Shown one piece after another: positions 4,491-63,481 of a stretch of 64,000 bases of DNA. Within the stretch, counting starts at the first letter, position 1; each line of letters begins with the position of its first letter. The notes beneath the pieces were generated by a model. The model saw nothing but the letters and a program-made list of their open reading frames with translations. It made no database searches and was not told the DNA's origin. Origin of the DNA: Vermamoeba vermiformis (taxonomy: Eukaryota); contig JBEWZL010000099.1 in NCBI GenBank assembly GCA_045837725.1, forward strand, positions 1 through 64,000, given 5' to 3'. A program made the position numbers and the translations under genes.

Positions 4491-5383
4491 AATGGTAGGG
4501 TGTTCTATGCCCTTCAGAACGCGAAACCCTAAACTGTAGTAACCTAATAATTACTATAAACCGACATTCGTCGACCACAAGTGAAACCGACACTGCTAGA
4601 CAGGACAGCGTTTGTGTCGGGAAATAACCTGGCACGACGTGAAAACGTTTTCACACACAAAACGCACCAATACAACAACTCCGTAACAATACGACCACAA
4701 GCTGGCCTAATAATTTGATTGTTTATTTATTGTTGGCTTCGCGGCACGGAGGTGCTTAGTTTTGCTGCAGCAGACCCTGTCGCGAATAAGATCGTCGTGC
4801 TGCTAATTGTGCTCTGCCCTCGTATCGATAATCATTAGCGAAAGTAAGGCTTAATATTTAATTCAATATTAAATATAATATTGATTACTTTCACAGTCAA
4901 TTTATTAATTTTCTGTCAGGGAGCCGATCAACGACGCACAATATTGTTTTCACGTGAAGAAATTGCCACCTTCGCCGAGAACGTTACTGGTAAACTCAAT
5001 AATGTAAGTAATGGGTTGTTTATCAACCTGCAATTTTATTTACGTTTAAAACTAATTTCAATCGCAGATACGACGGCAGATTTTGACATACAACCTGTCT
5101 TTGGGATCGCATTGCCGCGTCTTTGCGTGGTACAGAGGTGATGGGTGATGCAAACGCTGGTAAAACAAGTGGTAAGTGATATTTAATACTAGTTTATTTT
5201 TAAATCAAATGCGCGGCATCTCACCGTTTTTGTTCTCGCAGCACTCCTGGCTTGAACCCGTGTGGGTATTTTCAATGATGATTCACAGAAAAGGCAGCCT
5301 TGCAATGTTTGAGTAAGTACTCTCTGATTTTAAATTGAGTTTAAACTAATCCGATCATCAGTTCTTCCAACAGCTGCGTGGCA

Positions 5384-6185
5384 CACCGTCCAGTTATTGG
5401 ACGGTTCCCTTTGTGTCACACCCTCACGTGACACCGCCCAGTTATTGGACGGTCCCTCCAGTGCGTGGCTCGCACCGTCCAAGTCTTGGACGCTTTATTG
5501 GTCGTACCTTGCACCGTCCAGTTATTGGACGGTCCCAGTGCCAAGTAGAACCGTCCAAGGCTTGGACGCTTGGCTCAAACCGTCCAAATTCTGGACGCTT
5601 TTTTTCCAGCACGGCTCGACACGGTCCGCTCTGCCCTCAGTGTGCCACCGTCCAGTTATTGGACGGTTCCCGCTGCACCGTGCCTCAGCTCGACACCGTC
5701 CAGTTATTGGACGCTTGGCTGGTACCGTCCGGCTTGGACGCTTTATCGGACAGTCCCCTCAGTGCGTGGCTCACACTGTCCAGTCTTGGACGCTCGGCCA
5801 AACCGTCCAAATTCTGGACGCTTTTTTCAGCGTGGCTTGCACCGTTCCCTCTGCTCTCAGTGCCACCGTCCAGTTATTGGACGGTTCCCTTCATGCTGCA
5901 CCTTCACGTGACACCGTCCAGTTATTGGACAGTCCCTTCAGTGCGTGGCTCGCACGGTTCAAGTCTTGCTTGGCTCAAACTGTCCAAATTCTGGACACTT
6001 TTTTCAGCGTGGCTTGCACTGTTCCCTCTGCTCTCAGTGTGCCACCGTCCAGTTATTGGACGGTTCCCTCTGTGCCTCAGCTCAGTGTGGCTCGCACCGT
6101 CCAGAACCTGGACGCTTGGCTGGTGCTGCATGGCTTGGTGAGTAGATTGCACCATCCAAGACTTGCCAAGGTCCTGGACATGTTT
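5384..6185. repeat. Complex minisatellite of CCGTCCA-n5/6-TGGACG palindromes with higher-order periodicity
   Basis: Many copies of CACCGTCCAGTTATTGGACGG, ACCGTCCAAGTCTTGGACGC and ACCGTCCAAATTCTGGACGC. Confidence 0.95.
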
Positions 6186-6239
6186 GCAATTGTAAAATAA
6201 AGTTTTGTTTTTACAAATAGCTCCTTTATTGGGTTTGTG

Positions 6240-6500
6240 AGGGGGCGTACAGCATGCTGTACAGGGGTGTACAGGGTGTACAGCGTGCTGTATGGGGGTG
6301 TGATGGGCATACAGCATGCTGTACGGGGGTGTGATGGGTGTACAGCATGCCGTACGGGGGTGCGAGGGGGCGTACAGTGTGCCGTACGGGGGTGTACAGT
6401 GTGCCGTACGGGGGTGTGAGGGGGCGTACAGTGTGCCGTACGGGGGTGTACAGCGTGCCGTACGGGGGTGCGAGGGGGCGTACAGCATGCCGTATGGGGG
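6240..6500. repeat. G-rich minisatellite (GTACAG-YRTG-CCGTACGGGGG units)
   Basis: Tandem 21-31 bp units visible directly. Confidence 0.9.
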
Positions 6501-6540
6501 AAAAAATCCTAGCCCCAGCCCTAAATCCTATAAAGTACAT

Positions 6541-6787
6541 TTTGTAAATTTGTAAATAAATGCATTATTTATTCTAGCTTTTATTTATTATTTGTCGTGC
6601 CTATTTCACTGTGCAATTTTTCAACAAAATTAAGCATTCATATACTGCTATATATATAAGTTCATTTACTATGTACAAATTCCTAAATAAACAAATTTTG
6701 CAGCAAAAAAGTTTGACAAAATATGAGTTTAAAGCCTCTTTAAACTCTATAACCTGCGGGTTTTTATAACCCAGAAGCCTACTATAG
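6541..6787. repeat. Dispersed ~245-bp repeat (probable element terminus), copy 1; copy 2 at 11655-11898
   Basis: Colinear high similarity to 11655-11898, including AATAAA, hairpin GAGTTTAAAG-CCT-CTTTAAACTC and GGGTTTTTRTAACCC. Confidence 0.85.
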
Positions 6788-7105
6788 TCTGACGCACCCC
6801 CCTGTCCCAAGGCCGTCAGACCGTCTGATGCACCCCCTCCTTGCCTGAGGCCGTCAGGCTGTCTGACGCACCCCCCCTGTCCCAAGGCAGTCAGACCGTC
6901 TGATGCACCCCCCTGTCCCAAGGCCGTCAGACCGTCTGACGCCCTTTGCTGTTGCAGTGCATGACTGAGGGTGCAGGTGCAGGTGCAGGTGCAATGCCTT
7001 TGCACCTGAGGCTGTCAGACTGTCTGACGCACCCCCCATCCCAAGGCCGTCAGACCGTCTGATGCACCTCCCATCCCTAGGCCGTCAGACCATCTGACGC
7101 CCTCC
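6787..7105. repeat. ~36-bp minisatellite with GTCAGACCGTCTGAC palindrome, plus a (TGCAGG)n tract
   Basis: Repeated CCCCTGTCCCAAGGCCGTCAGACCGTCTGAYGCACC. Confidence 0.9.
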
Positions 7106-8237: not shown

Positions 8238-9987
8238 GAGGGTTGGAATGACTATTAGTCAAGTTGACCTGACCGAAACTTTAAAAAAATTGGAATTATT
8301 CACGTAATATAGCACTGAGCTCAATATTCAATAGAATGATTATTATTAAGAATATTACGTTTAACAACTATAATATTAGTGTTATTTTCTTGCAGCATTC
8401 TCAAAAATTAAGATTTCTTGTGATCTGTCTTCTGCCGCTTTCGCTTGGGACTTGAGGACAGTTTGGGTGAACCCTGTGGCAGTGCTGAGGCACTGTCATG
8501 GGGGACAGGATTGTCCTCATTCCCTTCCTCTGAGCTTTCATCTGATAAAATGTACGCGTACTTTCGTGCCTAAAAATAGAAGTGGTGAGCGATCTCCTGC
8601 TCGGACAAAAGCAATATATTCGATGGTATCATATTGTCCGTATTTAAGTAATGTAGCTATTGAATTGCTTATTTGAATTTCGATCTCAAGATCAACCTAC
8701 AAAAACCAAAAATTCGACAAAAACTTACGCCTTTGTTTCCTGTCTTTTCAAATTCTAGCCGCACTACTGGTCCAGTCCACTCATTTGAGTAATTCCTCGG
8801 GCTGTATTCATACTCTGCTATCTCGTTATGCAATGCAAAGCAGAATCGGACATAATCATTAAGGTCTTTTCGGTCACCATGGTACTTGTGCTTGCAGATC
8901 CGGAACACAGATTTGACCTTATCAAAGCCTAATTCTATGAATTGCCTCGATTCTTCTACTTTGATGTTAAATAGATCATCTTCTTTTGATAGAGGGTGGT
9001 TGACAGCAGCTCGCTTCTTAATGTGAAATTGACAGCCACGATCCAATCTGTCAAAACTCAAATATCCGGTATCCAATGCTAGGCAATCCTTCTTTGTGAT
9101 ATTGTCTTCAATATTTGGCCAGCATTGTTTTAATCGATATATATCATGGTGGGCATAAGGAACAGCATCTGAGACAAAACCGAAACGGTGCGATAGATCC
9201 ATGATGCAGGTGACCTTGTATGCTAATGAATGATAAGGATTAGCCTCGAAAAGGTTTGTAATTATTAGATTGCATCGAATTGTATCACAGCTTACCCAGT
9301 CCTTTGAGCTTTTTGCACCACGTTCCTTGATCTCCTGATCTTTCCTCATTGTGAGTCCACTCAAGTGGTATGGGCGTCGAATCTCCCACTAATGTAATAT
9401 CATCGACTTTGTGCTTATATCAAGAGTGAAATGACTTGGCTGCAGTGCGGCGATAGTCATAATTTTTGAAATTAATGACATGATCGGAAAATGGCTTCAG
9501 GAACGGAATAACCTTTCGATGGAGAGTGCCAATATTGGAGTGAGGGTACCCGAATAGCTTCTCTAAAAATAATATATCATTATTAATATGACATGCAATT
9601 GAATTATATAATAATTAATTTCTTAATTCTCGAAAATCTTAAAATATTTACCTTGGTATGTCTCGGGATCGTATTCTATAAGCCAATATAAAAAAAAGCT
9701 AACTGCTGTATCTCCATCAAGCGCACCATGGAATCGTACCTCAGGGTTTTTCTCGAGACATTTCCTGAAGTAAAATCGGATCTTTTGCTCAACAGGCTCT
9801 GGTAGAGCCTGCTTTATAGCTTGTAATAGAAGACCTTGATTGCGTAATGCAATCAAGCCTTCGTCGCGCGAATCGTCACTGGTGTTATTCATAAAAATTT
9901 AATTATCAAAATTTCAATTTAAAGTTCGGTCAGGTCCACCTAACTGTTTTGTTGGGTTGGATTGAATTTCAGGTTATATCAACCCTC
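8238..9987 (-). mobile_element. PIF/Harbinger-superfamily (ISL2EU-like) DNA transposon, ~1.75 kb
   Basis: Termini GAGGGTTG (8238) and CAACCCTC (9987) flanked by AT(AT) on both sides; inner inverted repeat GACCTGACCGAA(A)CTTTAAA at 8257-8285 and 9918-9945; contains a DDE_Tnp_4-type transposase. Confidence 0.75.
8669..9892 (-). pseudogene. DDE_Tnp_4 (Harbinger/ISL2-type) transposase with one in-frame stop in the core
   Basis: Exons 9892-9652, 9562-9296, 9222-~8729 give ...EKLFGYP (HTH)...LVGDSTPIP...WCKKLKGLAYKV...HHD...ALDTGY...RQFIELGFDKVKSVF...CFALHN; TGA at 9420-9422. Confidence 0.85.
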
Positions 9988-27047: not shown

Positions 27048-29189
27048 TTAGTTGTTGCCCTTCAACATGCGTTGCATATCGACGGCAGCTGTTCCGATAC
27101 CGCGCAACTGGAACTTTTCTTGAAGAATGGAGAGCATGGTCGGTGTGCAGAAAGCAGGCAAGTGAGGACCGAGGTGAATGTTCTTGATGCCCAAGTGCAA
27201 CAAAGTCAACAGAACGGCGACGGCCTTTTGTTCGAACCATGAAACGACGAACGACAAAGGTAAGCCGTTGACGTCAGTGTTGAAAGCCTTGGCTAATCCA
27301 CTCGCGATTTGAATAGCAGAGTAGGCGTCGTTACATTGACCAACGTCGAGCAAACGAGGAATGCCACCAATGTCACCAAACTCGTACTTGTTGAAGCGAT
27401 ACTTGCCGCAAGCCAGAGTCAGAATGACGGAGTCCTTGGGAGCGTTCAAAGCCATATCCTTGAAGTAGTTTCGTTCACCTTCAGCACCGTCGCAACCACC
27501 GATGAGGAAGAAGTGCTTGATGGCACCGCTCTTGACGGCCTCGAAGACCTTGTCATCGACACCCAAAACTGCATTTCTGCCAAAGCCGACAGTGACGTAC
27601 TTGGGCTTCTCGTCTTGTTCGAAACCTTTCATTTCCTTGGCAATCTTGATGACCTCAGAGAAGTCGTCGCCTTGGATGTGCTTGACGCCGGGCCAGCCGA
27701 CGACGTTGCGAGTGAAGATGCGATCCTTGTAGCCTTTCTTGGGCTCAATGATGCAGTTGGTGGTCACAACGATGGGACCAGGGAAGGCGCTGAACTCGAG
27801 CTTTTGCAATTGCCAAGCACCTCCGTAGTTGCCGACCAAGTGCTTGTACTTCTTCAAGCCAGGGTAGCCGTGAGCGGGCAACAACTCGCCGTGAGTGTAG
27901 ACGTTAATGCCAGTGCCTTCAGTCTGCTTCAAGATGTTCTCGAGGTCCTTCAAGTCGTGACCGGAGACCAAGATGCACTTGCCCTTAACAGCGTGAATAG
28001 GAACGCGAGTAGGAGTGGGGTGACCGAATTGTTCAGTAGCACCGGCGTCCAAGATTTCCACTGAGACAACACGTAAGTCAACTATGTTTAAATGGCTCAT
28101 ATTATACTACTTACTAATCTTTAAGTTGAGTTCTCCGACCTTCATAGCCATGCCCAAGTACTCCTCGACGGTTGCATTTTCGCGTGCCAAAAAGTCGAGG
28201 ACTTCGTGGACCATAGTGTAGATCACGTCGCTCTCCTTGCCCAAGATTTCAGCGTGCTCGGCGTAAGCAGCGGCACCCTTCAAGCCGTAGGTAATCAATT
28301 CTTGCAAACCAACAACGTCGTTGCCGTATTTGACTTGGCGGGGCTTGATACCAACTTCATTGCCTTGTTCAGTCATCTTCTCGACGTCGGCTTTGTCGGC
28401 GAGCTTGAATTGAGCGGGGCCAGTGAGGCGTTCAGGCACTTTGCCTTGTTTCATGCAAGCTTCTTCGTACATAGTTCTGGCCTTGTTCAAAAGTCGCTCG
28501 GCAGTGTTCAAGTATTGTACGAATCGATCGGCATCGAAGTTAACGTTGGTAAGTGTAGCAAAGAGCGATTTCAAAATGAAGATGTCGATCTCGTGATCTT
28601 TGATGTTCTGAAATTTTTCATGATTAGGGTCCGAAACTTGCTATAGTAAGACCTCGTACCATTTCTCTCAACTTCTTGGCATACATAGAGATACCCTTGT
28701 CGGCGTAGACTAAGAGATCTTGCAATGCGGCAACATCCGGTGTTTTGCCACAGACGCCGATTGTGGTGCAGCCTTTAACATCGCGAGTTTGTTCGCATTG
28801 GAAGCAGAACATAGGTTCTACGGTAAAGAGTTAATATTGATTAATCGAGTTAAACTAATTGTTGTTAAACTAATTGTTCCGTACCTTCAGATGTGTACAA
28901 CTTCTTGGTGGCAGTCTGGCCAGCAGGGACAGACTTCATCCATTTGTTCGAAGTGCTGATAGATCGCTTCTGTTGATTGATCTTGGTAGCAGCTGATTGG
29001 AACAGAGTACGGCTATTACGAGATGTAACAGAAGAAGTTGTTGATTTCTAAAAGAAAGGGTAAGCATTACTGCTAATAACTCAAAATCGACTACTAAGGT
29101 AAATCGACAATAGAATTTCCTCAAAAGGAGCAAGATGAGCGACTTACCAACAAACTACGGAGAGCAGCGCGCGATACGTTCAAAGCCAT
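27048..29189 (-). CDS. hcp: Hybrid cluster protein (prismane, hydroxylamine/NO reductase) with N-terminal mitochondrial-type presequence
   Basis: [19 protein letters not shown] cubane motif; GHD, HGE, TTNC, GGCDG, LACGK, WFEQKA; two 5' exons add [50 protein letters not shown]. Confidence 0.95.
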
Positions 29190-53588: not shown

Positions 53589-56500
53589 ATGTTGTCTGCG
53601 CAACTCAACGCATCCAGCAATGATAATCAAGAGCAACTCCACAGTAATTCAGAACGTCTTCCTAAAGACACCTCCGAAAAATTACTCGAAATAGAAGATG
53701 TAGAAATGAACACTGACCCGTAAGTCGGAGAGTTTCAATATTGAGCCGAATTAACGAAAATATCCCTTTGATCCCGGCGCACGAAAAAAAATTTATAAAT
53801 ATTGAAGGGACAATTATTTTAGCGGGTTATTAGCAACATTGATTTTTTGGTAGGGTATTTTAATTATTCTAAGCTTACAGTAATTTATGGCGAAGGGTGG
53901 TGCGGAGATCGGGTGAGGATCACTAAATCTGCCGTTGTAAGATGGTGTTTTCCATAATTTGGCATACGCAACGTTGAATTATTTATACCCATCGTTGTGT
54001 GTATGAGTAAAATCTTGTAGACAAAAATACAGTCCCGAATTTTTCCATTTATCTGTTTCTGGATGGAGGCGACAACACATGTGCACACTAGAGTTGTGGA
54101 ATGCGGACCGGACAATTCTGTTGACCGGTCTAGCGTCCGCCATGACTATAGGGTGGTTAGCTTGTCCGCCACCAGCCAAAACAAGATCGTTGGTGCAGCC
54201 TTTCGGCGTTTATTCAAAATTGATCCAGAAAATAAGAAAAATATTCCTCTAAGGTACGTATTTATTTCTTATTAGTTTTGGGAATTTGTTGCGTAAATTA
54301 AAATTTTAATTAATTAAATTAACTTAATTAGTAACGGCTAGTTTTTAGGGCGGTAATCTCGACCCTTTTAGCAGAGGAGCCCAATATTACAATGCCCTAC
54401 GGCAAGCTTGAGGAGTTCGTAAAGCAGATAATTGCTGGCGATTTGAAGGTGAAAAATTCAGATGGCGTTTTAGAGCGGTTCTACTCTTTAACTTGGAACT
54501 GCAGCCTGATTTGTACAAAACCAATTGAAATTGGTAAGTATTTATCGATAAATAGTATTGAGCAATTAAATCTAATGTCACAATTTTAGATTCACCGATC
54601 TACGACACCCTTAATGATACCGCCTTTATTGACTCCGAGCCTATTACTTGCTTTGAACAATTGATTGAGGAGAGTACGCATACTGAATTACCTGCGTAAG
54701 TAAGATTACCGTCAGTGGGGTTAATTATAATGATCTCGTGACACAGGGCTACGGAAATGGTCTCAGCTTTCGGCGTTGATATTCTGGTCTATCACCAGTT
54801 TTTTGACGAGTCTGAATACTCATCCTTTAAATCCTCGCTGTTCCAAGACATTTTGTTCTCACCAGAGGGCAAGATCAATGAACGGTTGACTGCAGTTACC
54901 AAACGGCTGTATGCAGTGTACGGAAATACAGGCACCGGTATCTCCTATAAGTATGATTCAATATATCAATTTTATTTATTCTAACAACTACTATGAAGCA
55001 ATTTCTACCGTGATTCTACGAATCAAACACCCGAGTGCATCCAGCTACTATTCCGAAAACTACGCGACTTTGGCTACTTTTGCAGTCACTCAACTTGTGT
55101 AATGTTTACTGCCTATCCGCCTTTATCGGAGGATGACATAGAACTAGCTCGGGCAAATAACCGAGAAGTATTCCCCGCCATGGGATCGCATGCTGATAGT
55201 ACGCAACAAACTATTGTTATTGCATTTGTATTTATTTTATCAATTAGATGACAAGTACTTGGGCAATGCAAGAGACGTTGTTGTGTTTACGGTCTCTGGT
55301 TTCGTAGATCCAGATGAATTGGTGGCTAACTGTGATGCCCCACCGGGGTGGCGCTTTGTGGTGCAGGAGCGTTCGCAGACTGGGACTCGTGAGTGCGTTA
55401 CCGTTTACGCAACAATTAATTTCTAATGCATTGTGCTTAGGGGATGTTGACATTCCGCTCGTGGACAATATGATGCTTTTACAACCAAAACGAATGCAAT
55501 CATACTTGAAACATCGAGTAGTCGGTGTATATTCCAGATTTATACGTTGGGTGGCGACAATTCGTAATGTAGATGTAAACATTTACGAGTCCGAGAAACG
55601 CAACTGTGGTAAGCTGTTAATATTTGGTCTGTACTTCCACTAATTATTTTATAGAGGCAAATACAACTCTTGGTTATTCTTTGTCGACCTGGACAACCAA
55701 CAAACAAAAGCTAATGCAGTGGAGGCGAGCACTGCGGCCTTCGACAAATGCCAAGAAACGAAAACTCTCGCGCAGTGGACTGGCTCGGAATACGGAACCT
55801 ATTAAGCCTTTGATTGATATATTTTTCCCCACCGGAGGTTGTTGGGCGTTTGCTCACTTGCTTTTGCACAACAATCAACTGTTGTATTGTGCGTCTTGCA
55901 AAGTTTTGCTCATCGAGCAGTTGCATGAATGTGCCGTTGGTAAATCATGTATCTTCGGCCCGAGAAAACATCTTAAAGTAAGTGACAATCTTGACGTTTA
56001 ATCACTTCAATCAAAATAACGAAAGCTCAGGTTGGGGAGCTGTATTCCAAGTTCGATTTGGCCAAAGCAGAATTTACTGGTGGCTTAACAATAGACTCCT
56101 CCTTTAATGGCCTCAGTCAAATAGGTAATTCCAATTCTGCAAATTAAACGGCGCGATGGATTAATTCACTCCAGGTTGTACGTCGATGTTACTTCGGAAA
56201 AATTTCCCTGGTAATAATTGGAGTAATTGGCGCGAGGGGGTTATAACAGTTGGTGGGGCGGGCGGCACGATGATTGATGGCTCATTTGTCGTCAATCGCG
56301 GGGCAGATTCAGCAAGGAATGACATGGTGCGGCTCAATTGTTATCACTGTCTTCCTCTCGAAATTGCGGTTGAATATCAAGAAGATGTCTTCCAATTCAT
56401 CGGTAAGCAACTTTCGCACTGTGTCAATTTGTGTAATGATTCATTAGGCACGTGGTTTGTTCGTCGAGTGAACCTGGATGCATACACTGAATTCTCCGTC

Positions 56501-56889
56501 GAGCCGTTCTACACATTTGAGCTATTCAATCGTCATAAATTCCTACGCGAACACCCCTTGGCTCATTCAGTACCAACGATCAGTAAGAGGAGTCATTTTT
56601 ATCATGCACTTTGTTGACACTGAGTTTCGCAGATCCATTGCTGGTCCAAGTTTGCGAATTGTACCAACGAGTTGCCGGTGTCGTGGATGAGTTAGAGTTA
56701 AGTGACGCAGGCGGGCTTGCTATGGCGACAATATTTGGCGAGCAGCCACTGGATCTGGTGCTACAGTACCTACAGCTCCATTATGAAGTGTTGCTTTGCT
56801 CGCTTGGACTTTTTGAAGTTCCTGAGTTCGATCCCAATGCATTCATTGCCGCTTTCAACCAGCTGAGTGATCTCGATGGAATTCCTTGA
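53589..56889 (+). CDS. Multi-exon protein with an AlkB-like 2OG-Fe(II) dioxygenase domain plus unassigned regions; start uncertain
   Basis: LVYHQFFDESEY..KRLYAVYG..MGSHADNDKYLG..VVVFTVSG..MQSYLKHRV..RWVATIR; HxD at 55189-55197, distal His at 55512. Confidence 0.7.
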
Positions 56890-57143
56890 AATAAATACTC
56901 ACGTGCTTTTTCTGCAGTAATTCGCCATTTTCTGTTTTGAACCAGTTCGATGCTTATGTTGTTGCAAGATACCACCAATTGCCGGCCTTCAGTAGGGTAA
57001 ATGAACCCGATCCTAATTTGTCATCGAATTTTCATATTTTTTATTTTACCTAAACGGCGAAAATCTCAATTAAATTTGGACGTTCTAGAGTAATTTACTA
57101 CATTTTTTAGCCAATACTAAGGTACTATTTTTTTTGGATGCAG

Positions 57144-60100
57144 ATGTCGCTTGTTCGTGTCTTTTCGGGTAAGGCTATGTTATTTGCGCTATTAAAAATT
57201 TATTTTTAATGTGTCGTATCTTCAGACACCGATCTACAACGTTTTATAGCTTCTCCAAATGTCATGCAGTCGTTGATCCACTTCCACGAAACAAATGAGC
57301 GTGGTCTCTCAATGGGCGACATTCACTGGGTCTACGAAGCATATCACGGCAATATAGCAAAAGATGAATTTATTGCGATCATTAATAACATTTTAAAGTA
57401 AGAAAATTCGACGGTCGATCTGTCTTCTGTGCTAACAAATTTACAGCCAGCCAAAAAATAGAGGCAATTTTACTTCGCATAAGATAGGAAAGATACAATT
57501 ATATCCATTTGAATTTGAGGTAAGAATAATAATCTTGTGCAGTGTAATCCTAATTTTCTGCGATAGTCTCCGCTGTTTAAATTTGGGTTTGTTAACCCAA
57601 GTGTTCGTTGTTTTCTGCACGTATGCTTGGTACTTATTGCAAAGGTCCCGTGTCTACGGCAACTGTTTGAACAGTCAACTACCGAGATTGCAATGCTAGT
57701 CAACGAGTATTTACTCAAATTCATTGAACAAAGCCAACCGGTCGATGCTGCAGTTCTGTTTGAAAGACTAGCAACTACTCTCGCTATCAATTCTAATGTA
57801 CGAACAATTGTGCAAGCTGGACAACAAGACGCTACCCTATTGTTACAAGATTTGTTAAATTTGGTAGATTCGCGGCGAGAACTAGCTATCCAATTCAGTA
57901 CGGCGATATTTGATGAAAATTCTACCCAAGTGAACGACGGAAGAGTGGAGCAGATCAACTGTACGTATTGTTTTTGCGACACATAACTAATGTAGTACAG
58001 GGATCGACATCTACTTCAAGCCATCCGTTCAGAGTGTTCAACAAGGAATTGACGATTTTTTTGCTCCGGAAGTGGTAGAATATCAAGCAAAGGTAATTAT
58101 TATCAATGTTTGTTAACGAAGTACTCGATCTAATGATAAAAAGGATTGCCAATTACGCAAACAGGTGTTGAACCACCCAAAACTGTTATTGATTCGAATC
58201 AATCGTTTCTCCGAGCTCGATGAACACAAGCAAGTTCGACGTTTGACAATCGAAACATCCGTTCACTTTGAAGGAACTTTGTACCTACTTTATGGTGTAA
58301 TTTGGCACGATGGAAAAACTCGCAATAATGGACATTATGGAGTTGTTGTCAACGAACGCTGTGCTTTACATTGGAACAATTATAATGATGCTAAAGTTAC
58401 ACGGGTATGTTTTTTCCAACAAGCGATCTCGGACTAAATGTCAAGTAGGAGCGTGTTGCTATTCTTTCGCAGTTAAGCGGTGGTGTTCGCTCCGCCAGTG
58501 CAGTGGTTTACATTAAACAAGCCGAAGTCGGCATTCAATTTCCGTTGAAGACTGCCGTTCCTGCTTCCTGTACGATGCAAACAAGGAAACGTAAAATCAG
58601 TGTCGCTTGCGACCTGTTGGAAACAGAAGACAACTTAATTGCTCCTCCTAAAAAAAGTAAGTGCAACGCGGCTAATTTAATTCTAATGCACCGTTAAGAA
58701 CCCAAGCAATTGGAAAAAGGCCAACCAAAGCTTCAGACACCTTCGATAGATAAGGAGTGGCAGCTGCCAGACTCGCATATTGTTGTTAAGGCTGTAACCG
58801 ACGATCTCCTTATGGTGGATAAAGTGGCACCGGGAAGCAAAATAGCTCTTGAGCAAATCAAGTGCATTTACAAAGTACGCTTCCATAATGTATGTATGCG
58901 AGATAATCGAATGGTTGTCTTATTTTGGCTAGGATCTATGGGAATGGCTCATCGATTGGAAAAATAAGAAGGTGCAAACAAATTGGATATGCGAGTCGGA
59001 CATTCGGGCAAATGCACTATTAATAATGAATAAGTACTTCCAATCTCCGCATGCACTATCCAATCAAGGTTGGCAAATACGAGATAAAACAAGTAAAGGT
59101 TTTGTTCGTACCTCCTTTTGTACGTTGGATAGCGGGCCCACCAATAAGCAGCCTATGACCAACACTAGCATCTTTTCGCGCTTTTTGCCTGGTACGTATC
59201 ATTCATTCGAGCGTTGAATATTCTCAGAATTAATGAATACCGCAGAGCAAACCCGTTTACAGATGGTCGAAGATATAAACCGTTATGCCAGTCTTTCATT
59301 TTCTGAAGTTATGCAAGAACGAAAAACATGGCGTTTGAACAAAACTGCACAGCTCAAACTTTGGGCCGAGAAAATGCAACAAAAATACAAAGGTAAATAT
59401 TACATAAGCTAACGAGAAAACAAACATTCTGATCACAATTAGGATTGCTAACGGTACCAAGTTGGGTTTCAAACGTAAAGCATTTGGAAGAATATTTTAG
59501 TACCGAGTTTGAACCTTCCGAAGAAGACAAAGTTACTTTTCAAAAGCAAAGAACAAATTGGAAACCACTTACGCTGCCAGAATTTGATATATTCATTGCC
59601 ATTGGGATCGCAAGTCGTTGTGTTAAAGGTCGTCGCCTCAGAGATTACTGGACTATCAAAGATCCCTTGTATGGCAACGAATGGATATCGTCAAAAATGG
59701 GCCGAGATCGATTCGAACAGATTATGCATTATTTCCACTTTGATATTGACAAAGTTACTCAAGAAGTAGCTCAACGATGCCAAAAAAATTGGTCTCCATC
59801 TCAAAAAATTACCTTTGATGAAACCATCTTGCCGTTTTTGGGCCGCTTTTATGCCCGAGTAAGTACTTGTTATCGTTAGATAATACATTTTAACTAACGT
59901 AACTCAGCAATTCATTCCAAGCAAGCCACATCCAAACGGTGTCTTACTCTACTTGGCCGCCGATGAATCTTACTACATTTGGGACTTCGATATATTCTTG
60001 GGTCTATGTCTGCCTCCTAAATATCAGCTGTTAGAGCTAGCCGAGAAATTGAACAATCACAAGCCTGGCCACGTGATTATAACAGATAGCAAATGGGGTG

Positions 60101-61014
60101 CGGAAGAGACGGCTACTATTTTGGATGAACAAGGCATTAAATTCTTGTTGTCGGCAAAGAAAAATGCTCCTTCATATATATTTGGTACTTTGCAAAATCC
60201 TCTACAAGAACCAGGGCAACACTTGACGTTTGAAAAAGAAGGCACTGCTGGTCCGATTATTGCTCACTCTTTCCGCGATAACAATGCAATTATGAATCTC
60301 TATTCCAATTACGTCGATGGTTAGTTCAATATTAATCAAAGTGTTTATCTAATTTCATTGCAGCGTCATCAGCCGCAACAGATCTGTGTCAAGGAGTACC
60401 GTCGACTGCAGTAAGCTTCTTATGCTTGCGTCATTAAGTTACTAATTTAGTTGTAAATGCAGAGTACAAAGCCACTTATTGTCCAAGAATACACAAAGAC
60501 CAAAGGATTTGTCGACGAGGCGGCAAGACAAATTCATACGTTTGATTGGCCGTTCAGATTAACAAAATGGACACAAGTAGTATGGGAAAATATTATAAAT
60601 ATAATCACTTGGAATTCATACCAGTGCTATCGCTACTATAAGAAAGTTCAGAACAATGACGAAGATCAATTTCGAGATTTCTTGCAAATTTTAAAGGATG
60701 AACTTAGTCAAGAGCAGTCTGCACGCAACAAGAAAAATGCATCTCCGTTAACTAGACACAGATCTCTCAGAACCCGAAGAATAATTGTCGCAAAAGATCT
60801 GAAATCAAAAAGTCTCTCTTCTCATGTGCGAGTTCAGAGCGAAGATGTCTTTGAAAGACGAGTCAATGGTTTTTGCCTAACGTGCAACCCACGTAAACGA
60901 AAGCAAATTAGCACAGTATGTTGGAAATGCAGCTCCGACAAAAAAAGACCAATTTTTCTGTGCAGTACTTGTAAGAACACACACAAACCCGTTTGTCGTA
61001 AGCTTAAACTATAG
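57144..61014 (+). CDS. USP (peptidase C19)-chromodomain-like-piggyBac transposase fusion
   Basis: Continuous spliced frame: GFVNPSVRCF, GQQDA, LLIRINRF, GVIWHDG..GHY, YNDAKV; WEWLIDWKN..TNWICESDI; DYW, MGRDRF, TFDE, FIPSKP, ITDS, YTKTKGFVD, C-terminal Cys/His cluster. Confidence 0.88.
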
Positions 61015-61069
61015 AATTTGTTAACAAACTTGCTGTAGGTAGTATAATAAATACTGTTTGTAATACATC

Positions 61070-61405
61070 CGGCGTCTAAGGGTGAAGCCTTAGCGCCGCT
61101 ACAATGAGAAAGTTACGCGCTGATTCTCGACGATGTGGGTCAGAGTATGGTCTGGAGGTCGTGTTGCCTCGGCAACACCACTGGTTCGGAACAGCACTCT
61201 CACTGGCACTGAGTTGGATGGGCTAGAAAGTGACTTGTCACTTGCCGTAGCGGACACTCTTTTGTTGTACGGTCTCCTTTATGGAGGGGTGTCGCCTTGA
61301 TGCCTGCGACCTTTCTATTGATGAATCACATGGTTTTGGTCGTGTCAGTCACCTCAACGTGACTTCGACACTTGGATGGGTTAGGGCCCGGCCAAATTCC
61401 TCCCT
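61070..61405. other. GC-rich, hairpin-dense non-coding segment (candidate structured RNA)
   Basis: Stems at 61070-61098, 61161-61178, 61228-61243, 61342-61371; direct repeat TTGGATGGGYTAG at 61214 and 61372. Confidence 0.4.
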
Positions 61406-61543
61406 ATGAATACATGTGCTTGCTCAACCAAGTATTGTATTGTGATTAATCATTTTTTATTAATAATACAAAGAAATGAGCTGGGGGAAGTGGATCGGAT
61501 CTGGGGCCGATCCGGATCTACTCAGGGGTGTGGCGCACTGTCA

Positions 61544-63481
61544 ATGGACATCACCCAACAAAATTGTACCTTTTTTTGTACTACAGTCTCTTCTGGCGAT
61601 TACCAAAAATCAACGGTCCTGAATTTTTGTATAATTTTTATCTAAAAACATTGGCCGGCTGAAAAGGGATATAGGGAGATCCGCTACTTCCTTTCAAAAG
61701 CTTGGCCAAGTGCCGAAAAAATCAATGCTGATCAAGAAAAGATCATTCAAGCTGCTACACCCCTTCCAGAAAACCGCATAATCGCTCATAGTGGTACTTA
61801 CTGGTTTATTAGTCGAACTGAGCTCTGCCTTCGCAGTCTAGAGGAAGAATTGCCAGTGTTGCGTTCTGCTTTCGGACCATATCACATACACTACGTCTGG
61901 ATAGATTCGGTGATGTCTATTGATTTCTACGACAACGTTAAAGGAAAGTTTCTTGGCATCACGCTTGATTGTGTCACTAAGGACACCGAAGAAGAAAACA
62001 GCTCACCCTTCCAAGTGGATGATATCTTGTCCAATAGTAATTTGCAGGAGAATATGAGCGAAGAGTACGTTATCATTATTAGGATTTTATTAATACTATT
62101 TCTCAGATCAAAATTTAATGAGCAGACAAGTTCCAATCAGTTAATCTTTGACCCAAACAATAATAGGTAATGAGCTTTAAATGTAAACCTGCCTATTAAT
62201 GACTAGGAATACCAGACCTCGTATACGCTACATAAATCTTAAAGCTATTGGATCACGTTTGCCATTAGAAGCACAAGCCAACATGGCAATTGCAAGAGCT
62301 GTTCCTCTTCCTGCAAGTCATGAGTTAATAGGGCGTAACACATACTGGTTTGTCACCACTGAACCAGTAGAAGTTATTCATTCTTCAGGATCAAAAATGG
62401 AGGAGCAATTAACAAAAACAATTAGTACAACACTTTACCTTTTGCAAATCAGATTTCGAACAGTGAGAGCCCATCTGACCTTCAGGTTTGGTGATAAATC
62501 TGAAGTGCATATAAGGGCAACTAGGTGGATGGAGGTTGATAAAGACTTGTTAATGATACAAACACAATCTGAATATTTAGAACTTGGAAATGTTATTGGT
62601 GAAGGAAGTTTTGGAACTATTTACCTTGCTGAGTGGAAAGGAGTGAAGTATGCTGTCAAGAAGTTTAAATTGTATGACAACAAGAAGGAAGAAATTGAAA
62701 AAGAAGCTACAGCTTTGCAGTATGTAAACAGGTTCCACTCCTTGCAATAACTTCTCACACTTTTGACTACATAGACTTGTGCAACATGAATGCATTGTGA
62801 CACTGGCTAGCATTACACATGATCAGGATGGCAAAATAATGCTTGTCATGGAGTACATGGAAGATGGCTCCCTAGCAGACTTCTTAAAAAATAACAAGTT
62901 AACAAAAGAAGCTGCTATCCAAATAGCATTAGATGTAGCTGAAGGGCTGCAGTATCTCCATTCACAGAGGATTATTCATCGAGACCTCAAAAGTGCCAAT
63001 GTTTTGGTAAGATTGTCTTCCCCTAGTAATTACTAATTTTGATGGTTGCGTTAGCTGTATGCCAACAAGACACGTGCAAAGTTGACAGACTTTGGTACTG
63101 TCAGAATTTTTGGTGAGAGCTCAAAAGCAACTACTGTCCTTGGCACAGTTGGATTCATGGCACCTGAAATTATGCAAGAAGAACCTTACAATGCAAAAGC
63201 AGACATTTATTCGTAAGTTTCATTATATTTCAGTATTCTTCTAACTTTATCTTAGGTTTGGTGCATTAATGTTCCACATGCTCACCAACAAACTGTTGCC
63301 AGTGTTTTTTTCTGATAAAGTTCGTGCAAACAAGATCTCTGAAGTGCAGGACACTGAATTCCAGAACTTGATAAAACAATGTTGTGAAATTGAGCCAACA
63401 GCACGACCAACAATAGAACAGTGCATTCAGAAGTTGAATGAAATGAGACAACAAAGTTTGGAAAATAACAACAACATGTAA
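61544..63481 (+). CDS. TKL-group protein kinase with a duplicated N-terminal domain; 5' end uncertain
   Basis: GEGSFGTIY, AVKK, HRDLKSANVL, DFG, GTVGFMAPE, ADIYSFG. Confidence 0.85.

What the first reader, a model, noticed from the sequence alone, without database searches (positions are those of the whole stretch)
57144..61014. Deubiquitinase (USP) and chromodomain-like module fused in frame to an intact piggyBac transposase
Seen: short GT-AG introns splice into one frame from a USP Cys box (Cys codon 57609), QQD and His box (GHY, His codon 58333; YND), through WEWLIDWKN..TNWICESDI, into a piggyBac transposase with all three catalytic Asp (59817, 60085, 60514) and a C-terminal Cys-rich domain. 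Known: some DNA transposons carry Ulp1/OTU proteases, and chromodomains target some integrases; I do not recognise a C19 USP-piggyBac fusion. Inference: the transposase may read and deubiquitinate chromatin, or protect itself from degradation. The chromodomain call is by eye and weaker.
Basis: partly seen in the sequence, partly recalled or inferred. Interest (0 to 1): 0.85.

Follow-up and report, generated by a model that had tools for sequence, protein, structure and literature searches.

The report
Deubiquitinase fused to piggyBac transposase
A single intron-rich eukaryotic gene appears to encode a ubiquitin-specific protease joined in frame to a catalytically intact piggyBac transposase, and the same arrangement is kept in a distant relative, so it looks like a new kind of host-transposase fusion.

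Summary
A 14-exon model (57144-61014, +; 13 GT-AG introns of 40-58 nt) gives one 1082-aa frame. Pfam scans of single exons find UCH/USP on exons 4 and 6. They find piggyBac DDE_Tnp_1_7 on exons 11, 12 and 14, with colinear profile coordinates.

The main new evidence is comparative. Metagenome contig L001 encodes a colinear homologue (second half of the USP domain, linker, W-rich module, piggyBac, Cys-rich end). It has no stop in 968 codons and 52% identity, synonymous sites are saturated, and 8 of its 9 introns share column and phase with the window. So the fusion frame is under selection in both.

I found no TTAA-flanked inverted repeats, and the window holds one copy. The transposase part carries five introns. 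A non-coding element downstream is also conserved in L001. I therefore favour a domesticated, immobile gene over an active transposon, but this is not settled.

The chromodomain call remains only a lead. No transcript evidence could be obtained. I found no USP-piggyBac fusion in the searches I could run. Verdict: real, a new variant of a known kind.

The parts
57144..61014 (+). Whole coding region, 14 exons: 57144-57168, 57226-57397, 57447-57519, 57567-57960, 58001-58092, 58144-58404, 58449-58656, 58699-58889, 58933-59191, 59246-59392, 59443-59858, 59908-60319, 60364-60410, 60463-61014 (stop TAG 61012-61014). Product 1082 aa.
   Evidence: the frame is open and every intron is GT..AG, 40-58 nt long. 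Exons 4-14 are colinear with L001. The exon 10/11 junction is supported by P0002-P0004, where the two parts are contiguous in one ORF. Exons 1-3 have no comparative support.
57567..58520 (+). USP (peptidase C19, Pfam UCH) domain, spread over exons 4-7. It contains the Cys box, QQD, the His box and a closing strand ending VVYIKQ.
   Evidence: UCH on exon 4 (15.3 bits, profile 2-108) and on exon 6 (32.6 bits, profile 144-237); the His box aligns with Ubp6, USP2 and USP21 chains; the equivalent L001 exon scores 41.2 bits.
57609..57611 (+). Candidate catalytic Cys105 (VNPSVRC), with Asn five residues before it.
   Evidence: for position. The assignment is inferred from the Pfam profile coordinates. 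The Cys-box half is below the Pfam cut-off, had no USP hit in PDB, and is not covered by L001.
58333..58335 (+). Candidate catalytic His316 (GHY), followed by NNYND.
   Evidence: One search aligns it to the GHY...ND of Ubp6 (1vjv). Conserved in L001 as GHY...NNYDD.
58581..58595 (+). Basic motif TRKRK directly after the USP domain, in the same exon (7). Possibly a nuclear localisation signal (inference).
   Evidence: Conserved in the window and L001 (TRKRK) and, with one change (TRKHK), in the decayed copy L002.
58842..59040 (+). Conserved W-rich module (chromo-like, unverified). It spans the end of exon 8 and the start of exon 9, split by intron 8 (58890-58932).
   Evidence: DLWEWLIDWK is identical in L001 and xRFxN precedes it in both; the nearest named ESM-Atlas clusters are Chromo at 0.87-0.89, which is a lead only. 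No Pfam or PDB support.
59246..59546 (+). N-terminal region of this piggyBac clade (exon 10 and the first part of exon 11).
   Evidence: Homologous and contiguous in P0002-P0004 and in L001.
59547..60621 (+). piggyBac DDE_Tnp_1_7 catalytic domain (exons 11-14). Asp codons at 59817-59819, 60085-60087 and 60514-60516.
   Evidence: All three Asp are conserved in L001. This domain has 67% amino-acid identity and dN 0.26 against L001.
60873..60996 (+). C-terminal Cys-rich domain (CxxC...CxxC...CxxC...H...C).
   Evidence: aligns with the C-terminal Cys-rich domain of T. ni piggyBac (6x67). The cysteines are conserved in L001.
61046..61051 (+). AATAAA 32 nt after the stop codon, a likely poly(A) signal (inference).
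   Evidence: Read. The upstream gene also has AATAAA directly after its stop (56890-56895).
61076..61520 (.). Conserved non-coding element just downstream of the gene (50% G+C against 41% for the window). It holds near-identical islands, for example at 61379-61410.
   Evidence: it aligns with L001 3430-3880 at the same distance and orientation from the stop; the plus-strand consensus fold is -68 kcal/mol with 24 pairs changed on both sides (two sequences only). There is no Rfam match and no second copy in the window.

Best explanation
This is one protein-coding gene of an intron-rich eukaryote. Its 1082-aa product has, from N to C terminus:
- a divergent but apparently complete USP-type cysteine protease;
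- a basic linker;
- a strongly conserved tryptophan-rich module, possibly chromo-like;
- a piggyBac transposase with its DDD triad and C-terminal Cys-rich zinc-finger domain.

Shown: the domains, the single open frame, its conservation in a second organism across saturated synonymous divergence, and the absence of recognisable transposon ends.

Inferred: the gene is a domesticated, immobile piggyBac derivative that arose by joining host exons in front of a transposase. This is the route already known for PGBD1 and CSB-PGBD3. The piggyBac part still binds and probably cuts DNA. The USP part removes ubiquitin, either from chromatin at the site of action or from the protein and its partners, so that the nuclease is not degraded. 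The central module and basic motif bring the protein to the nucleus and chromatin.
For: - Exon-wise Pfam hits are colinear along both profiles.
- Catalytic residues are in place: the His box aligns to USP structures, and the three Asp fall in the family's acidic columns and align to solved piggyBac transposases.
- L001 carries the same order of parts on one strand with no stop in 968 codons.
- 8 of 9 L001 introns are at the identical alignment column and phase. The ninth has the same phase and lies 6 columns off, beside an alignment gap.
- Fourfold-degenerate sites match in 49 of 157 cases (0.31) against 0.27 expected from composition alone. Amino-acid identity is nevertheless 52% overall, with 49% in the USP part and 67% in the DDE part. 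Both halves and the link are therefore under purifying selection.
- The last USP strand and the basic linker lie in one exon in the window, L001 and L002.

For domestication specifically:
- No TTAA-flanked inverted repeat beyond chance: the best is 10 of 16 matching bases, while 30 shuffles gave maxima of 9-12.
- No inverted repeat between the two intergenic flanks: score 23, against a shuffle 95th percentile of 24.
- One copy in the 64 kb window.
- Five introns lie inside the transposase-derived part. In the passages I read of PMC5381638, introns in the transposase-derived sequence are described only for domesticated genes (PGBD5, PGM, TPB2).
- A flanking non-coding element is conserved in L001 at the same place.
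Against: - There is no transcript evidence, so the splices are inferred. Exons 1-3 and the Cys box have no comparative support because L001 is cut off at its 5' end.
- The Cys-box half of the USP domain is weak. It scores 15.3 bits, below Pfam's 23.9 cut-off, and had no USP hit in PDB. Protease activity is therefore uncertain.
- An intact DDD triad and Cys-rich domain fit an active transposase equally well.
- A decayed, internally deleted copy exists in another organism (L002 = L003), as expected of a mobile family.
- The conserved downstream element could be part of a transposon rather than a sign of shared position.
- Copy number in the genome is unknown because no genome is held.
- Only one intact relative was available.
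Confidence: 0.6

Rival explanations
1. It is the transposase gene of an autonomous piggyBac-superfamily transposon family that has captured a USP domain, much as Helentrons carry OTU, VTD or UCH domains. The deubiquitinase would help transposition, for instance by shielding the transposase from the proteasome. The ends of this copy are either lost or too short or divergent to recognise.
For: - The DDD triad and the Cys-rich domain, which binds the transposon ends in T. ni piggyBac (recalled), are intact.
- Several diverged lineages exist in metagenomes: P0001 at 77%, L001 at 63% and P0002-P0004 at 43-46% identity on exon 11.
- A decayed, internally deleted copy sits in an unrelated context (L002 = L003).
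- DUB domains in DNA transposons have precedent: UCH in HLE2 Helitron-like elements (PMC11417382, passages read) and VTD/OTU in Helitrons (PMC9741609, passages read).
- Homology with L001 downstream of the gene stops abruptly after about 500 nt, at a GGG.
Against: - No TTAA-flanked inverted repeats, and no inverted repeat between the flanks, beyond chance.
- The reverse complement of the sequence at the downstream homology boundary is absent from the 255-nt upstream intergenic region.
- There are thirteen introns, five of them inside the transposase part, with conserved positions.
- The window holds one copy.
- The gene is tightly packed between other genes, and an AATAAA follows the stop before the conserved element begins.
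Confidence: 0.28
2. There are two neighbouring genes on one strand, a small USP gene and a piggyBac-derived gene. The single frame would then be an artefact of choosing splice sites that keep it open.
For: Splice sites were picked by hand to keep the frame open. No RNA evidence exists. Exon 8 contains a Met codon in both species, and the linker is the least conserved part (32% identity).
Against: - The linking exons 7-10 are open, colinear and split at the same positions and phases in L001, although synonymous sites are saturated.
- The linker has dN/dS of about 0.34.
- Exon 7 joins the last USP strand to the basic linker without a stop in three lineages.
- No conserved internal start codon, and no room for a promoter or terminator, was seen between the parts (read).
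Confidence: 0.08
3. It is a decaying relic: the frame is open by chance and the protein does nothing.
For: The USP half is divergent. A decayed relative exists (L002).
Against: There are 1082 codons without a stop in the window and 968 in L001. Identity is 52% where neutral sites are saturated, and the catalytic residues of both enzymes are kept.
Confidence: 0.03

Closest known systems
PGBD1 (SCAN-piggyBac) and CSB-PGBD3: host exons fused in front of a piggyBac transposase
   Same: An N-terminal host-type domain is spliced in frame to a complete piggyBac transposase-derived region. The product is conserved under purifying selection and is no longer recognisable as a mobile element. (PMC5381638, passages read. 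PMC3459987, abstract in a search listing.)
   Different: The partner here is an enzyme, a C19 ubiquitin-specific protease, plus a W-rich module, not a SCAN domain or part of a SWI/SNF ATPase. The organism is an unidentified intron-rich non-vertebrate eukaryote. All three catalytic Asp and the Cys-rich domain are kept, whereas the table in PMC5381638 shows PGBD1 with an altered motif and no Cys-rich domain.
PiggyMac (Paramecium), Tpb2 (Tetrahymena) and PGBD5: catalytically competent domesticated piggyBac genes with introns
   Same: Intron-containing and transposase-derived, with the catalytic core retained. In ciliates these proteins work on chromatin-marked DNA. (Abstracts of PMC3861120 and PMC6143343 in search listings. 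Intron counts from passages of PMC5381638.)
   Different: No USP domain is reported for them in what I read. There is no sign here of a ciliate, since the standard stop codons are used. Whether this organism eliminates DNA is unknown.
Deubiquitinase domains carried by Helitron-like transposons (OTU, VTD, UCH)
   Same: A ubiquitin-cleaving cysteine protease is joined to the enzyme that moves or cuts DNA. The UCH (PF00443) domain is reported enriched in HLE2 subgroups (PMC11417382, passages read). VTD and OTU domains are found in Helitron open reading frames, and some became domesticated (PMC9741609, passages read).
   Different: Those partners are RepHel rolling-circle proteins, not DDD cut-and-paste transposases. 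In those papers and in my searches no piggyBac element or derivative with a USP domain appeared.
Chromodomain-bearing integrases of Ty3/gypsy 'chromoviruses' (recalled, not checked here)
   Same: If the W-rich module is chromo-like, a histone-mark reader would sit on a DDE-type DNA-joining enzyme.
   Different: The chromodomain assignment here was not confirmed by any profile or structure test. The module lies N-terminal to the catalytic domain, not C-terminal.

Membership tests
Ubiquitin-specific protease, peptidase C19 (Pfam UCH, PF00443) | Profile match above the curated cut-off | tested here: met
   Exon 6 scores 32.6 bits against a cut-off of 23.9. The L001 equivalent scores 41.2 bits. 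Only exon pieces could be scanned, not the spliced protein.
Ubiquitin-specific protease, peptidase C19 (Pfam UCH, PF00443) | Cys box with the catalytic Cys and the preceding Asn | tested here: inconclusive
   Exon 4 matches profile positions 2-108 at only 15.3 bits, E 0.015. It had no USP hit in PDB. Cys105 with Asn at -5 is present. That this is the catalytic column is inferred. L001 does not cover it.
Ubiquitin-specific protease, peptidase C19 (Pfam UCH, PF00443) | His box (GHY ... ND) with the catalytic His and Asp/Asn | tested here: met
   Aligned to Ubp6 chain 1vjv and to USP2/USP21 chains. Conserved in L001.
Ubiquitin-specific protease, peptidase C19 (Pfam UCH, PF00443) | Cleaves ubiquitin conjugates | not testable with these tools
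   Needs a biochemical assay.
piggyBac superfamily transposase (Pfam DDE_Tnp_1_7, PF13843) | Profile match above the curated cut-off | tested here: met
   Exon 11 scores 61.9 bits and exon 12 scores 30.8 bits, against a cut-off of 22.4. Exon 14 scores 20.5 bits. Profile coordinates are colinear: 28-141, 145-282, 298-349.
piggyBac superfamily transposase (Pfam DDE_Tnp_1_7, PF13843) | DDD catalytic triad | tested here: met
   The three Asp fall in the columns where 20, 20 and 18 of 22 full-length relatives have Asp. They align to piggyBat and T. ni structures.
piggyBac superfamily transposase (Pfam DDE_Tnp_1_7, PF13843) | C-terminal Cys-rich domain | tested here: met
   Aligned with the C-terminus of chain 6x67. 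No Pfam zf-Tnp_2 hit was listed for exon 14.
Mobile piggyBac-like element | Terminal inverted repeats flanked by TTAA target duplications | tested here: not met
   nothing beyond what shuffled sequence gives, within 4 kb upstream and 3 kb downstream.
Mobile piggyBac-like element | Several similar copies in the genome | not testable with these tools
   No genome is held. The 64 kb window has one copy.
Domesticated piggyBac-derived gene (PGBD / PiggyMac type) | Conserved under purifying selection between species | tested here: met
   Against L001: dN is 0.26-0.46 in the domains, with synonymous sites saturated. This rests on one intact relative.
Domesticated piggyBac-derived gene (PGBD / PiggyMac type) | Same chromosomal position in related species | tested here: inconclusive
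   A downstream non-coding element is shared with L001. However, L001 is only 3989 nt and holds no neighbouring gene, and the element could belong to a transposon.
Domesticated piggyBac-derived gene (PGBD / PiggyMac type) | Expressed as a host gene | not testable with these tools
   The RNA runs offered put 0, 1 and 0 reads on 6.6 kb that include neighbouring genes, which the tool calls no test.
Chromodomain (Pfam Chromo, PF00385) | Profile match | tested here: not met
   No hit at E up to 10 on the exon 8 or exon 9 pieces of the window or L001. The module is split by an intron, so only halves could be scanned.
Chromodomain (Pfam Chromo, PF00385) | Three-stranded sheet plus helix fold with an aromatic cage | tested here: inconclusive
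   The AlphaFold model of the exon 9 piece alone had mean pLDDT 51 and predicted helices, so it is unusable. ESM-Atlas nearest named clusters are Chromo at 0.87-0.89, a lead only.

The most novel reading that the evidence does not exclude
A lineage of free-living eukaryotes outside the ciliates keeps a catalytically active piggyBac nuclease physically coupled to a deubiquitinase and a histone-mark reader. It would use this protein for programmed cutting or rearrangement of its own chromatin-marked DNA, with removal of histone ubiquitin built into the same polypeptide.
Probability: 0.1. Interest if true: 0.9.

Novelty: new variant of a known kind. Interest (0 to 1): 0.62.

Why it matters
Host-transposase fusions are a known route to new genes, and deubiquitinase domains are known passengers of Helitron-type transposons. 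I did not find a cut-and-paste piggyBac transposase joined to a USP deubiquitinase in any search I could run. Both enzymes here keep their catalytic residues, and selection has held them in one frame over a long time, which suggests that the two activities are used together. If the protein is active, it would link ubiquitin signalling directly to DNA cleavage or transposition. It would also give a testable case for the old idea that mobile-element enzymes need protection from, or access through, the ubiquitin system. It is also a natural example of a piggyBac transposase that tolerates a large N-terminal enzymatic fusion.

Tried and rejected
- RNA evidence: no RNA holder was listed. Three RNA-seq runs with the same species label put 0, 1 and 0 reads on window 56000-62600, which includes neighbouring genes. 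The tool marks this as no test.
- Whole genome: none is held, so copy number and ends in other copies could not be examined. The record behind L001 is not held either.
- Word-indexed protein searches found nothing: exon 11 with longer lengths (28 candidates, none scored), USP exon 4 with longer lengths (501 candidates, none scored), and exon 9 with near lengths (no candidate).
- Scans of viral contigs and genome contigs with the exon 11 alignment found no relative.
- Chromodomain tests that gave nothing:
  - Pfam on exon pieces.
  - PDB by sequence with exon 9 and with the two-sequence profile.
  - An AlphaFold model of exon 9 with mean pLDDT 51. I did not send it to fold search because a low-confidence model gives meaningless matches.
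All such tests were run exon by exon.
- Terminal repeats gave nothing beyond chance: general inverted repeats, TTAA-anchored ends, flank-against-flank alignment, and the reverse complement of the downstream homology boundary.
- Rfam on the window at gathering thresholds found 0 matches. On 61000-61700 at E up to 5 it found two weak, irrelevant matches. No tRNA genes were found.
- Earlier findings of this scan: nothing by place, words or sequence.
- Cluster look-up of P0001-P0006 showed single-member clusters from metagenome sources, with no informative name.
- Considered and rejected: a ciliate origin, because TAA, TAG and TGA all behave as stops here. Also a giant composite element with distant ends, because no ends were found within the searched 4 kb and 3 kb.
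Full report
**What is in the sequence.** I read 56400-61800 and the stop-to-stop frames, then built a gene model from exon coordinates. It has fourteen exons joined by thirteen GT-AG introns of 40-58 nt. They give one open frame from the ATG at 57144 to the TAG at 61012-61014.
- 57609 is Cys105, in VNPSVRC.
- 58333 is the His of GHY.
- 59817, 60085 and 60514 are Asp.

The window is 40.6% G+C with no N. Other genes in the window, scanned as single open frames, include a Prismane/hybrid-cluster protein, a GST, a kinase and a Harbinger-type DDE ORF. This is a eukaryotic chromosome stretch. No genome is held for it.

**Domain identity.** Of 10 exon pieces:
- UCH/USP matched exon 4 (E 0.015, 15.3 bits, below the 23.9 cut-off, profile 2-108) and exon 6 (8.2e-8, 32.6 bits, profile 144-237).
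- DDE_Tnp_1_7 matched exon 11 (8.8e-17, profile 28-141), exon 12 (2.5e-7, 145-282) and exon 14 (3.3e-4, 298-349).
- Five pieces had no hit.

The colinear profile coordinates across introns are themselves support for the splices.
- USP part: the His box aligns with Ubp6, USP2 and USP21 chains. The Cys-box exon had no USP hit in PDB, so that half is divergent and the catalytic Cys is inferred.
- piggyBac part: exon 11 aligns with piggyBat (9c0f), including the first DE. Exon 14 aligns with T. ni piggyBac (6x67) residues 432-593, which places the third Asp on D447 and the C-terminal cysteines on its Cys-rich domain.
- In an alignment with 22 full-length piggyBac relatives, the three Asp fall in columns where 20, 20 and 18 of the 22 have Asp.

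**Is the single frame real?** No RNA test was possible (see tried and rejected), so I looked for relatives.
- A full HMMER search with exon 11 found 352 proteins at E up to 1e-3, 7 at up to 1e-10 and 3 at up to 1e-30.
- The best are short ORF-level pieces from metagenomes: P0001 at 77%, and P0002-P0004 at 43-46% identity.
- In P0002-P0004 the parts matching exons 10 and 11 are contiguous, which confirms that junction. Each ORF runs out just after the FYA motif, where the window has intron 11.

A scan of metagenome contigs returned three loci (326 pattern matches, 3 confirmed). L001 (3989 nt) matches the spliced model colinearly from residue 141 to 1068. Its own model, ten exons with GT-AG introns of 44-63 nt, has 968 codons without a stop. 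It covers the second half of the USP domain, the basic linker, the W-rich module, the piggyBac domain and the Cys-rich end.
- Eight of its nine introns sit at the identical alignment column and phase as window introns. The ninth has the same phase and lies six columns off, next to an alignment gap.
- The window has one extra intron (13) in the shared part.
- Comparison with L001 also moved the donor of window intron 8 by 15 nt, keeping a conserved xRFxN.

**Selection.** Over 940 aligned codons, amino-acid identity is 52%:

| Region | Identity |
|---|---|
| USP part | 49% |
| Linker | 32% |
| W-rich module | 49% |
| DDE domain | 67% |

- The Nei-Gojobori dS is undefined (saturated) for all regions but the linker, where dN/dS is 0.34.
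- At fourfold-degenerate sites of identical residues, 49 of 157 third bases agree (0.31), against 0.27 expected from composition.

Neutral sites have therefore been randomised, while the frame, the intron positions and the catalytic residues of both enzymes were kept. That is hard to reconcile with two unrelated neighbouring genes or with a relic.

L002 and L003 are the same sequence, 99.7% identical over 1992 nt. They hold a decayed copy in which an exon-7-like piece (last USP strand plus the basic motif) is followed directly by exon-11- and exon-12-like pieces with frameshifts. There is no USP core upstream. So the USP end and the transposase are linked in a third lineage too, and copies of this family can decay.

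**Transposon or domesticated gene?**
- I found no terminal inverted repeats. The general search lists only short chance-level pairs.
- Among 33 upstream and 22 downstream TTAA sites, the best inverted ends match at 10 of 16 bases, while 30 shuffles gave maxima of 9-12.
- The best inverted alignment between the 254-nt upstream and 646-nt downstream flanks scores 23, against a shuffle median of 18 and 95th percentile of 24.
- The window holds one copy.
- The gene lies 255 nt after the stop of the upstream gene, and an AATAAA follows its own stop by 32 nt.
- Downstream, 61076-61520 aligns with L001 at the same distance from the stop, with near-identical islands. The two-sequence consensus fold on the plus strand is -68 kcal/mol with 24 doubly changed pairs, against -31 kcal/mol on the minus strand. 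It has no Rfam match and no other copy in the window.

If that element is a separate RNA gene, its shared position argues for vertical inheritance of a resident gene. If it is the transposon's own tail, it argues the other way. In the passages I read of PMC5381638, introns within the transposase-derived sequence are described only for domesticated genes (PGBD5, PGM, TPB2), and piggyBac is described as a natural exon trap giving N-terminal fusions. On balance I favour domestication, at roughly 2 to 1.

**The chromo-like module.** DLWEWLIDWK is identical in both species and is the best-conserved stretch outside the transposase. However:
- No Pfam Chromo hit appears on any piece.
- There is no PDB sequence hit.
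- The fragment model is unusable.
- The ESM-Atlas nearest named clusters are Chromo for both the window and the L001 piece, at 0.87-0.89. By the tool's own calibration that is only a lead.

The module is split by an intron in both species, so only halves could be tested.

**Known or new?**
- None of 148 scanned proteins among the 150 best piggyBac relatives carries UCH or Chromo. P0147 and P0148 were left out for a size limit. 146 of the 148 carry DDE_Tnp_1_7.
- Eight literature searches returned no USP-piggyBac fusion.
- The nearest precedents are PGBD1 and CSB-PGBD3 (PMC5381638, passages read), UCH domains in Helitron-like HLE2 elements (PMC11417382, passages read), and VTD/OTU deubiquitinases in Helitrons, some of them domesticated (PMC9741609, passages read).
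- PMC12062965 screened 10 million proteins for co-occurrence of transposon and host domains. Its main text does not mention this pair, and its supplements were closed.
- InterPro could not be queried.

**Verdict.** It is a new variant of a known kind, a host-domain-piggyBac fusion gene with a deubiquitinase as partner. Its function is inferred only.

Noticed in passing
window 61076-61520: A non-coding block of about 50% G+C directly after the gene's likely poly(A) signal is conserved with L001, although neutral sites are saturated. It has near-identical islands (for example 61379-61410, which includes GGGTTAGGG) and many doubly changed pairs in a two-sequence consensus fold on the plus strand. 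It has no Rfam family and is not repeated in the window. It may be an undescribed structured RNA gene, a conserved 3' UTR, or a transposon tail. On the minus strand the island reads as one and a half telomere-type repeats, which is only a curiosity for now.
   Followed up: partly
L002 1597-2440 (= L003 119-960): A decayed, internally deleted relative of the gene in a lower-GC organism. An exon-7-like piece is followed at once by exon-11- and exon-12-like pieces with frameshifts, and there is no USP core upstream. The same sequence occurs in two metagenome records, 99.7% identical over 1992 nt.
   Followed up: partly
window 56000-62600, runs X20-X23: Three RNA-seq runs with the same species label as the best DNA holder put almost no reads on four genes' worth of sequence. 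A 2017 DNA run of that label holds next to none of the words, while water, wastewater, biofilm and bioreactor metagenomes hold parts of it. The labelled species may not be the organism that carries this DNA.
   Followed up: no
window 8672-9388 (-): An open frame with a DDE_Tnp_4 / plant-transposon-type (Harbinger/PIF-like) nuclease domain (E 3.4e-8). This is a second, unrelated transposase-derived sequence in the window.
   Followed up: no
window 27051-28640 (-): A hybrid-cluster (Prismane) protein gene, E 5.6e-121 on its larger exon, interrupted by one short GTAAGT...CAG intron around 28060-28113. This is an anaerobe-type enzyme in an intron-rich eukaryote.
   Followed up: partly
window 61646-62750 (+): Two consecutive open frames share an N-terminal motif (…PLPxxxxIxxxxTYWFxxxxE…). 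The second runs into a protein kinase domain, so this looks like a tandemly repeated module in front of a kinase.
   Followed up: no
window 5334-7014 (both strands): Long overlapping open frames on both strands made of short proline/serine/tyrosine-rich repeats. This is probably a tandem repeat rather than genes.
   Followed up: no
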